From Trypanosoma brucei (Eukaryota): a stretch of 64,000 nucleotides of DNA. The DNA lies in contig CH464491.1 in NCBI GenBank assembly GCA_000002445.1, positions 3,456,001-3,520,000 of the forward strand, in the 5' to 3' direction. Every line of letters begins with the position of its first letter. Within the stretch, counting starts at the first letter, position 1. Positions 16,973 through 17,496 of the stretch are shown here, piece by piece. The notes beneath the pieces are model-generated. The model did no database searches and was not told where the DNA came from. It was given only the letters and a program-made list of their open reading frames with translations. Position numbers and translations under genes: made by a program.

Positions 16973-16982
16973 TAATATTAGG
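16973..16982 (+). repeat. Target-site duplication, 5' copy (taatattagg)
   Basis: It is identical to 17487-17496. The uninterrupted copy B carries a single taatattagg at the same position. Confidence 0.85.
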
Positions 16983-17486
16983 TCCCTGGCGATGCCGGCC
17001 ACCTCAACGTGGTGCCAGGGTCCAGTACCCCGTATCATCGGGGGAAGCCAAGAGCCAGCAGAGTTCCTTTCATGGGGAACACTGCTGTGCTCCGGCTACG
17101 GCATCATACAGCACAGGGATCAGCAGCGTCTTGCTGGGACACCGTTTTTCATTTGTCTGTCCCTGGGCACGTGCCAGCGTGCCATCAGCAGTATCATCCG
17201 CACTAAGATGCTGCTGTCCGGTGATGTGGAACTCCAAAAAAGGATTGCCAATTGGCATCTTTTGGAGAGTCCAGGGTGGGAGGCTTCTCGCCCCATCTGC
17301 TGTATTCCGTTCATATGCGGAAATACAACAAAAATTATAGAGGGTGTGTTAGGATGAATGAAAAAGAGAGACTCTGCCACAGTCGCCAGACCGATAGCAT
17401 CTCAGGGCTCTACGGTGATGGCTGATGGCCGCGCCAGTGGGGGGAAACTCTCACGAAGGCACGAAGAAAATTCTAAAAAAAAAAAA
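16983..17486 (+). mobile_element. RIME-type non-autonomous non-LTR retroposon (ingi/RIME family), full-length with poly(A) tail
   Basis: It starts with the conserved trypanosomatid retroposon 5' signature CCCTGGCGATGCCGGCCACCTCAACGTGGTGCCAGGGTCCAGTACCCCGTATCATCGGGGGAAGCCAAGAGCCAGCAG (Pr77 hallmark). It is ~490 bp plus A12 and is flanked by a perfect 10-bp direct repeat. It is absent from the paralogous copy B. Confidence 0.85.
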
Positions 17487-17496
17487 TAATATTAGG
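17487..17496 (+). repeat. Target-site duplication, 3' copy (taatattagg)
   Basis: It immediately follows the A12 tail. Confidence 0.85.

What the first reader, a model, noticed from the sequence alone, without database searches (positions are those of the whole stretch)
16973..17496. Apparently recent RIME retroposon insertion with intact poly(A) and perfect 10-bp target-site duplication inside repeat copy C
The ~500-bp element starts with the conserved Pr77-type 5' signature shared by ingi/RIME/L1Tc. It ends in A12 and is flanked by identical taatattagg direct repeats. The paralogous copy B has a single taatattagg at the homologous position, so it is the empty site. That makes this a clean before/after pair within one locus, implying the insertion post-dates the B/C tandem duplication. 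It also argues for a T. brucei-group origin of the sequence.
Basis: partly seen in the sequence, partly recalled or inferred. Interest (0 to 1): 0.6.

Follow-up and report, generated by a model that had tools for sequence, protein, structure and literature searches.

The report
Known RIME retroposon beside assembly gap
This is a genuine, intact, already catalogued RIME retroposon in the Trypanosoma brucei TREU927 reference genome (chromosome 11), but the "tandem duplication" that seemed to hold its empty site is most likely an assembly artefact at a 100-N gap.

Summary
A 503-bp element (16984-17486, + strand) ends in A12 and is flanked by perfect direct repeats. The repeat is 11 bp (TAATATTAGGT), not 10.

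It is a true RIME. It is 97.8% identical over its full length to a T. b. gambiense RIME. Its two halves match the first ~249 and last ~247 bp of a 5,256-bp ingi. It shares the RIME deletion junction. The published ingi/RIME endonuclease target signature sits upstream (6 of 7 positions) in exactly the register that puts the nick at the start of the repeat.

The window is T. b. brucei TREU927 chromosome 11. This element is already listed in a published catalogue (NT_165288:3,472,984-3,473,485).

The "B/C tandem duplication" reading is not supported. The window's only gap (100 N, 15889-15988) lies exactly between B and C. The two copies overlap with 0 substitutions in 1,156 bp. The gambiense and equiperdum assemblies carry one copy there.

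The secure empty sites are the inverted paralogue A (10072-10082, - strand) and the orthologous sites. All comparators are one lineage, and the arms undergo gene conversion, so "recent" is only loosely bounded. This is ordinary biology with a small curation point.

The parts
16951..16972 (+). 22-nt target signature upstream of the first-strand nick (published ingi4 signature AxxxxxxxTxxxGTxGGxTxxx^). Includes GTTGGCT at 16963-16969 and T at 16959.
   Evidence: 6 of 7 consensus positions match. No other offset within +-6 nt scores above 4. Only 0.12% of window positions score >=6. The control RIME in L008 scores 7/7. The signature text comes from PMC3820030.
16973..16983 (+). 5' copy of the target-site duplication, TAATATTAGGT (11 bp)
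   Evidence: It is identical to 17487-17497 and to the single copies at 15717-15727 and 10072-10082 (- strand).
16984..17486 (+). RIME non-autonomous non-LTR retroposon, 503 bp, GC 53.1%. It is antisense to the surrounding minus-strand gene cluster.
   Evidence: 97.8% identity over the full length to a T. b. gambiense RIME (L008:3115-3619); listed in PMC4660242 Suppl. File 1 as NT_165288:3,472,984-3,473,485 with an identical 100-bp upstream sequence.
16984..17061 (+). 78-nt Pr77 / '79-bp signature' hallmark of the ingi/L1Tc clade (CCCTGGCG...GCCAGCAG)
   Evidence: (alignment A1): identical to the RIME in L008 and the ingi in L009; length 78. Literature on Pr77.
16984..17231 (+). 5' half (RIME A), matching the first ~249 bp of ingi
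   Evidence: 98.0% identity to L009:7992-8240, the 5' end of a 5,256-bp ingi that is followed by an Exo_endo_phos_2 ORF.
17232..17237 (+). RIME-specific internal deletion junction (GGTGATGTGGAA|CTCCAA|AAAAGGATTGCC). In ingi the 5' side continues GAGAATCCCGGCCCG, i.e. GDVEENPGP.
   Evidence: the same junction is present in the independent gambiense RIME (L008).
17238..17474 (+). 3' half (RIME B), matching the last ~247 bp of ingi
   Evidence: 92.3% identity to L009:13002-13247.
17475..17486 (+). Uninterrupted A12 tail
   Evidence: The L008 RIME also ends in A12.
17487..17497 (+). 3' copy of the target-site duplication, TAATATTAGGT
15717..15727 (+). Empty site in 'copy B'. This contig end cannot be told apart from arm A or from the other homologue.
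10072..10082 (-). Empty site in inverted paralogue A. This is the secure within-genome 'before' state.
15889..15988 (.). 100-N scaffold gap, the only gap in the window, lying exactly between B and C
14733..15888 (+). End of the left contig ('copy B') that overlaps the start of the right contig (15989-16982 plus 17487-17659). There are 0 substitutions and one 1-bp indel about 12-13 bp from the gap edge.

Best explanation
The element at 16984-17486 is an ordinary member of the T. brucei RIME family. RIME is an internally deleted, non-coding derivative of the ingi LINE. It was inserted by target-primed reverse transcription using ingi-encoded endonuclease and reverse transcriptase.

Proposed sequence of events:
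1. The endonuclease recognised the ingi-type target motif (T...GTTGGCT...) at 16951-16972.
2. It nicked one strand between 16972 and 16973.
3. The polyadenylated RIME RNA was reverse-transcribed from that nick.
4. A second nick 11 nt downstream produced the TAATATTAGGT duplication.

The insertion lies in one arm of a 1.5-kb inverted repeat that flanks a tRNA-Ala/Arg/Phe cluster in TREU927 chromosome 11. It is about 290 bp past the stop codon of the 441-aa gene XP_829374.1 and antisense to it.

Shown here: family membership, the end structure, the target motif in the correct register, and empty paralogous and orthologous sites.

Inferred: the enzymology, which comes from literature on the ingi/L1Tc clade, and the roles of the 5' 78 nt as promoter and HDV-like ribozyme, which have been shown for L1Tc and not for T. 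brucei RIME.

Sub-claim (about 0.8-0.85): the B/C 'tandem duplication' is a scaffolding artefact. Two overlapping contig ends, one with the RIME and one without, were left unmerged and joined by a 100-N gap.
For: - Organism: the 441-aa ORF is 100% identical to a TREU927 protein on a 5.26-Mb contig.
- RIME identity: full-length 97.8% match to a gambiense RIME. The halves match the ends of a 5,256-bp ingi at 98.0% and 92.3%. The deletion junction is shared. The 78-nt hallmark is identical in RIME and ingi copies. GC is 53.1% against a published 53.8%.
- Insertion mechanics: an 11-bp perfect TSD and an A12 tail. The target signature scores 6/7 in the exact register, against a background of 0.12%; the control scores 7/7.
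- Empty sites: arm A, gambiense and equiperdum and three short-read contigs.
- Already catalogued.
- Artefact sub-claim: the gap lies exactly between B and C. They differ by 0 substitutions in 1,156 bp, and the only difference is a 1-bp indel near the contig end. Other assemblies have one copy. Chromosome 11 was shotgun-assembled from reads of both homologues (PMC2854126).
Against: - The TSD is 11 bp, whereas the literature gives a conserved 12 bp for Tbingi/TbRIME. A 12th position would be a T/A mismatch.
- One of the seven upstream signature positions (A expected at 16951) does not match.
- No T. brucei-specific experimental evidence for promoter activity of the 5' end was found; one cited study found none.
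- Rfam and nested folding give no support for a ribozyme. Neither method can model the pseudoknotted fold well.
- For the artefact sub-claim: a real, very recent tandem duplication whose junction is hidden in the gap would give the same dovetail pattern. No TREU927 reads or alternative TREU927 assemblies could be examined.
Confidence: 0.9

Rival explanations
1. B and C are real tandem paralogues in TREU927, and the RIME inserted into C after the duplication, leaving B as the empty paralogue.
For: B and C appear head-to-tail in the scaffold. B has the correct unique left flank and C the correct unique right flank. A recent tandem duplication with a gap inside it would also show homology running up to both gap edges.
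Against: The only gap in the window sits exactly at the B/C boundary. No novel duplication junction is visible. B and C differ by 0 substitutions in 1,156 bp, with a single indel about 12-13 bp from the contig end. The gambiense and equiperdum assemblies are single-copy here. Shotgun data from both homologues are known to underlie chromosome 11.
Confidence: 0.13
2. The insertion is heterozygous in the diploid TREU927 clone. 'B' is the empty homologue and 'C' the filled homologue, and the assembler could not merge them.
For: Chromosomes 1 and 9-11 of TREU927 were assembled from reads of both homologues, with within-strain pi = 0.0022. The dovetail overlap breaks only at the RIME.
Against: At pi = 0.0022 about 2.5 substitutions are expected in 1,156 bp, and 0 are seen. 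Heterozygosity is patchy, so this is weak evidence. B's empty-site end (15267-15888) is equally compatible with reads from inverted arm A.
Confidence: 0.35
3. The RIME is older than it looks. It predates the brucei/gambiense split and was erased from the gambiense/equiperdum lineage by gene conversion from the empty inverted arm.
For: The arms are 100% identical within gambiense and within equiperdum but differ by 31-37 positions between subspecies, so arm-to-arm conversion operates. All comparators are one lineage, with 0-1 mismatch in 1.6 kb. The window RIME has about 5 apparently private substitutions among the few copies compared.
Against: The TSD is perfect at 11/11, the A12 tail is uninterrupted and the 78-nt hallmark is fully intact. 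Insertion in the TREU927 lineage needs one event rather than two. In TREU927 the insertion has survived next to an empty arm.
Confidence: 0.1

Closest known systems
RIME (TbRIME; Hasan et al. 1984; Bringaud et al. 2004)
   Same: It is about 0.5 kb. Its 5' half matches the first ~250 bp of ingi and its 3' half the last ~250 bp. It has the same deletion junction as another RIME, the 78-nt hallmark, a poly(A) tail, a flanking TSD, the ingi4 target signature and about 53% GC.
   Different: The TSD is 11 bp rather than the canonical 12 bp. Nothing else differs. This exact copy is already in a published catalogue.
ingi (5.25-kb autonomous LINE of T. brucei)
   Same: The two ends are shared. In L009 the ingi is 5,256 bp and carries the same 5' hallmark and 3' end. 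The target preference is the same.
   Different: The window element lacks the central ~4.75 kb that encodes the endonuclease, reverse transcriptase and RNase H. It must therefore be mobilised in trans.
NARTc/L1Tc of T. cruzi, and SINE/LINE pairs such as Alu/L1
   Same: A non-autonomous element that uses the machinery of an autonomous partner. It shares the Pr77 hallmark with NARTc/L1Tc.
   Different: RIME arose by internal deletion of its LINE and keeps both ends. NARTc is a 3'-deleted L1Tc. Alu derives from 7SL RNA.
TbSIDER / DIRE degenerate retroposons
   Same: They share the 5' signature. The second fragment in the window (12809-13008) is of this degenerate, truncated kind: 92% identity and no tail.
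   Different: The element studied here is full-length with an intact tail and TSD, so it is not degenerate.

Membership tests
RIME (T. brucei non-autonomous ingi derivative) | About 500-bp element made of the first ~250 bp and the last ~250 bp of ingi | tested here: met
   element positions 1-249 match L009:7992-8240 (98.0%) and positions 256-502 match L009:13002-13247 (92.3%). The two matches lie 5,256 bp apart in an ingi that has an Exo_endo_phos_2 ORF.
RIME (T. brucei non-autonomous ingi derivative) | Same internal deletion junction as other RIME copies, indicating a single ancestral deletion | tested here: met
   the window has GGTGATGTGGAACTCCAAAAAAGGATTGCC and L008 has GGTGATGTGGACCTCCAAAAAAGGATTGCC. 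The full-length identity is 97.8%.
RIME (T. brucei non-autonomous ingi derivative) | 77-79-nt conserved 5' signature (Pr77 hallmark) starting CCCTGG | tested here: met
   the 78 nt are identical to the L008 RIME and the L009 ingi. L1Tc nt 1-11 are CCCTGGCTGAG (PMC1874656).
RIME (T. brucei non-autonomous ingi derivative) | 3' poly(A) tail | tested here: met
   A12 at 17475-17486.
RIME (T. brucei non-autonomous ingi derivative) | Flanking target-site duplication of conserved size, 12 bp (PMC3820030 citing Bringaud 2004) | tested here: inconclusive
   a perfect 11-bp TSD. A 12th position would be T versus A. The control RIME in L008 has a 12-bp TSD under the same convention.
RIME (T. brucei non-autonomous ingi derivative) | Preceded by the ingi4 endonuclease target signature AxxxxxxxTxxxGTxGGxTxxx^ in register with the TSD | tested here: met
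   6/7 at offset 0 and at most 4/7 at other offsets within +-6 nt. Background frequency of >=6/7 is 0.12%.
RIME (T. brucei non-autonomous ingi derivative) | No coding capacity for endonuclease or reverse transcriptase | tested here: met
   The element is 503 bp. Its longest frame (124 codons) matches only short RIME/ingi-5' read-through ORFs annotated as hypothetical.
HDV-like ribozyme (L1TcRz type) in the Pr77 hallmark | Double-pseudoknot fold with self-cleavage 5' of nucleotide +1 | not testable with these tools
   Rfam gave no hit at E<=1. The nested MFE fold is -29.1 kcal/mol with z = -1.05. Pseudoknots are not modelled, and activity has been shown for L1Tc and some other elements, not for T. 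brucei RIME.
Genuine tandem segmental duplication (B/C) | Two copies present in contiguous sequence with a novel junction, and/or in independent assemblies | tested here: not met
   A 100-N gap lies exactly between the copies and no junction is visible. L001 and L002 are single-copy. No independent TREU927 assembly was available.

The most novel reading that the evidence does not exclude
'Copy B' is the second homologue of chromosome 11, so the RIME insertion is hemizygous in the TREU927 reference clone. That would make it a retrotransposition event recent enough to be unfixed within one diploid strain. It would give direct evidence of ongoing ingi-machinery activity and a ready-made allele-specific marker at this locus.
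Probability: 0.35. Interest if true: 0.3.

Novelty: already known. Interest (0 to 1): 0.12.

Why it matters
It matters little for biology. RIME/ingi elements, their 12-bp TSDs, their target motif and their recent activity have been described in T. brucei for two decades, and this copy is in a published list.

The practical value is for curation. The apparent 1.2-kb tandem duplication around the 100-N gap at NT_165288 ~3,471,889-3,471,988 is probably false. If so, the region between the tRNA cluster and the 441-aa gene is about 1.26 kb shorter than the scaffold shows.

If the empty contig end is the other homologue, the site is a simple PCR-typable hemizygous RIME marker. The case also shows that 'before/after' pairs next to assembly gaps should not be read as paralogues.

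Tried and rejected
- Exact-protein look-ups for the TREU927 441-aa protein found no contig. Look-ups for the two junction-spanning ORFs also found nothing: the 185-aa filled-site ORF 16800-17357 and the 61-aa empty-site ORF 15544-15729. Heterozygosity could therefore not be tested with independent TREU927 assemblies.
- An Rfam scan of 12000-18500 at E<=1 found only three tRNAs and one chance hit, and no ribozyme family in the element.
- Nested RNA folding of the 78-nt hallmark was no more stable than shuffles (z = -1.05). This says little about a pseudoknotted HDV-like fold.
- A literature search for MGE-PCR/RIME strain typing returned nothing in the held library. A search for TREU927 haplotype/ingi assembly issues returned nothing relevant.
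- I considered that the window's inverted repeat is 'Tb927_11_IR7', an siRNA-producing inverted repeat (PMC3447711). The length (1,814 against 1,519 bp), the mismatch count (3 against 5-6) and the coordinates do not match, so this is unresolved.
- I considered using absence from seven other assemblies as strong evidence of recency. I rejected that weight because the seven are effectively one lineage and arm-to-arm gene conversion could erase an insertion.
- I considered estimating age from divergence to a RIME consensus. Too few copies were available, so about 5 'private' substitutions may be source-lineage variants.

Full report
**1. Observation**

- TAATATTAGG occurs at 16973-16982 and 17487-17496 and brackets a ~0.5-kb segment that ends in A12 (17475-17486).
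- The 10-mer occurs four times in the window against 0.05 expected, and 0 of 100 shuffles reach four.
- The other two occurrences are a single copy in 'copy B' (15717-15726), where the two flanks are joined directly, and one on the minus strand at 10073-10082.
- The base after the 10-mer is T in all four places. Elements of the ingi/L1Tc clade start CCCTGG (L1Tc nt 1-11 = CCCTGGCTGAG; PMC1874656).
- The duplication is therefore 11 bp (TAATATTAGGT; 16973-16983 and 17487-17497), and the element is 16984-17486, or 503 bp.

**2. Organism and position**

- The 441-aa ORF at 17777-19102 (-) is 100% identical to XP_829374.1/EAN80262.1 of Trypanosoma brucei brucei TREU927, which is recorded on a 5.26-Mb contig.
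- A published catalogue of TREU927 ingi/RIME copies (PMC4660242, Supplementary File 1) lists an element at NT_165288:3,472,984-3,473,485. It is on the plus strand with both ends 'ok', and it matches ingi positions 1-5257 over only 501 genomic bp. Its 100-bp upstream sequence is identical to window 16885-16984.
- The window is therefore chromosome 11, about NT_165288:3,456,001-3,520,000, and this copy is already known. The catalogue labels it 'Complete INGI', although its size shows it is a RIME.

**3. Is it a RIME?**

I tested this against sequences rather than from memory. The ORF running through the element retrieved short 'hypothetical' proteins from other T. brucei assemblies, and I fetched their loci.
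- Against L008 (T. b. gambiense DAL972, FN554969.1), the element aligns over its full length at 97.8% (505 columns).
- Against L009 (GCA_003543875.1; source names for proteins P0013, P0017 and P0019 of this assembly, read T. brucei or T. b. equiperdum), element positions 1-249 match at 98.0% and positions 256-502 at 92.3%. The two matches lie 5,256 bp apart, at the ends of an element whose next ORF has an Exo_endo_phos_2 domain. That element is a full-length ingi.
- The deletion junction (GGTGATGTGGAA|CTCCAA|AAAAGGATTGCC, about 17232-17237) is the same in the gambiense RIME. In ingi the 5' side continues GAGAATCCCGGCCCG, encoding GDVEENPGP.
- The first 78 nt are identical in the window RIME, the gambiense RIME and the L009 ingi.
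- GC content is 53.1%, against a published 53.8% for RIMEs.

Every defining feature of RIME is met except that the TSD is 11 bp rather than the canonical 12 bp (PMC3820030). The L008 control has a 12-bp TSD under the same convention.

**4. Mechanism**

PMC3820030 gives the target signature upstream of Tbingi/TbRIME as 5'-AxxxxxxxTxxxGTxGGxTxxx^xTxTxxTxxxxx-3'. The arrow marks the first-strand nick and the 12 nt after it are the TSD.
- Scoring the window puts the nick between 16972 and 16973, exactly where the observed TSD begins. Six of seven upstream positions match (T 16959, GTTGGCT 16963-16969).
- No other offset within +-6 nt scores above 4. Only 0.12% of all window positions score >=6. 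The L008 RIME scores 7/7.
- This is independent evidence that the ingi-encoded endonuclease chose the site and that integration was by target-primed reverse transcription, with a second nick 11 nt downstream.
- The enzymology itself is inferred from the literature on the clade.
[quoted passage not shown] For T. brucei ingi/RIME, a cited study found no promoter activity. I found no direct ribozyme assay for RIME.
- Rfam and nested folding (z = -1.05) add nothing here.

**5. Context**

- All 17 credible long ORFs in the window are on the minus strand, so the RIME is antisense to a single directional gene cluster. It lies about 290 bp beyond the stop codon of the 441-aa gene.
- It sits in one arm of a 1.5-kb inverted repeat. 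Arm A is 9632-11150 (-) and the other arm is 14649-17937.
- The arms flank tRNA-Ala(cgc), tRNA-Arg(ccg) and tRNA-Phe(gaa) at 13847-14240. They also flank a degenerate 200-bp ingi 5' fragment at 12809-13008.
- The same architecture exists in gambiense and equiperdum.
- Within gambiense and within equiperdum the arms have 0 mismatches. In TREU927 they have 5-6. Orthologous arms differ at 31-37 positions. The arms therefore evolve in concert.

**6. The B/C 'tandem duplication'**

- The window has a single gap, 100 N at 15889-15988. 'Copy B' ends at its left edge and 'copy C' starts at its right edge.
- B 14733-15727 equals C 15989-16983 at 100% over 995 bp. B 15717-15888 equals C 17487-17659 except for one 1-bp deletion about 12-13 bp from B's end.
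- Over the 1,156-bp overlap there are 0 substitutions. B and C share all three substitutions that separate them from arm A.
- In L001 and L002 the segment between the tRNAs and the 441-aa gene is single-copy and gap-free, with an empty site.
- This is the pattern of two overlapping contig ends that were not merged because one has the RIME and the other does not, and were then scaffolded with a default gap.
- Chromosomes 1 and 9-11 of TREU927 were shotgun-assembled from reads of both homologues (pi = 0.0022), and the gambiense genome paper notes that indels often coincide with gaps (PMC2854126).
- No base between 15267 and 15888 distinguishes arm A from the B/C locus. B's empty-site end could therefore be the other homologue (a hemizygous insertion) or arm-A reads pulled into the wrong contig.
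- A real, very recent tandem duplication with its junction hidden in the gap is not excluded. I give it about 0.13.

**7. Age**

- The perfect 11/11 TSD, pure A12 tail and intact hallmark fit a young copy. At the low divergence levels seen here, though, 22 bp of TSD would rarely have changed anyway.
- The site is empty in DAL972, in GCA_003543875.1 and in three short-read contigs (L003-L005). L006 and L007 end before the site. All seven comparator loci differ from each other by 0-1 mismatch in 1.6 kb, so they count as one independent lineage.
- Because the arms are homogenised in those genomes, loss of an older insertion by conversion from the empty arm cannot be excluded.
- The window RIME has about 5 substitutions not seen in the few other copies compared. 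These could be variants of the source lineage.

**8. Verdict**

This is a correct observation of an ordinary, already catalogued RIME insertion in the T. brucei reference genome, and its mechanism is well supported. The one inference that would have made it a neat 'before/after paralogue pair' rests on what is most likely an assembly artefact. The secure empty sites are inverted arm A and the orthologous loci.

Interest is low. The residual novel reading is a hemizygous insertion in TREU927, which a single PCR would settle.

Noticed in passing
window 9632-11150 (-) and 14649-17937 (+); L001 11166-12685 and 16328-17850: A 1.5-kb inverted repeat flanks a tRNA-Ala/Arg/Phe trio inside a single minus-strand gene cluster. 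The arms are 100% identical within gambiense and within equiperdum and differ at 5-6 positions in TREU927. Orthologous arms differ at 31-37 positions, which indicates concerted evolution by gene conversion.
   Followed up: partly
window 12809-13008 (+); L001 14479-14672: A degenerate, 3'-truncated ingi/RIME 5' fragment (92% identity to the RIME over 200 bp, no tail) lies near the centre of the inverted repeat (centre about 12900). It is conserved in gambiense and equiperdum, and PMC4660242 lists it as NT_165288:3,468,815-3,469,008.
   Followed up: partly
window 15889-15988: The only N run in the window (100 N). The sequence on its two sides overlaps by 1,156 bp, so the scaffold probably overstates this intergenic region by about 1.26 kb.
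   Followed up: yes
window 14245-14259 vs L001 13090-13226: About 137 bp next to tRNA-Phe is present in T. b. gambiense (and in L002) but absent from TREU927. Its nature was not examined.
   Followed up: no
L008 3001-3489 (protein P0015): The DAL972 protein annotated 'T. brucei spp.-specific protein' (162 aa) is a read-through ORF that starts 115 bp upstream of a RIME (3116-3619) and runs into it. It is probably an annotation artefact. The window has an equivalent 185-aa ORF at 16800-17357.
   Followed up: partly
PMC4660242 Supplementary File 1: The catalogue labels ~500-bp elements that match ingi positions 1-5257 as 'Complete INGI', although they are RIMEs. It also lists each element twice under two coordinate systems (for example 148054-148555 and 3472984-3473485).
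   Followed up: no
PMC3447711 Table 3 (Tb927_11_IR7, 4219000/4231000): The only chromosome 11 inverted repeat in a published list of siRNA-producing loci is 1,814 bp with 3 mismatches. The one in this window is 1,519 bp with 5-6 mismatches, at about 3.466-3.474 Mb of NT_165288. Whether they are the same locus in different assembly versions is unresolved.
   Followed up: partly
window 11868-12653 (+): A 261-aa ORF lies on the strand opposite to the gene cluster, inside the spacer between the inverted arms. It was not examined and may be spurious.
   Followed up: no
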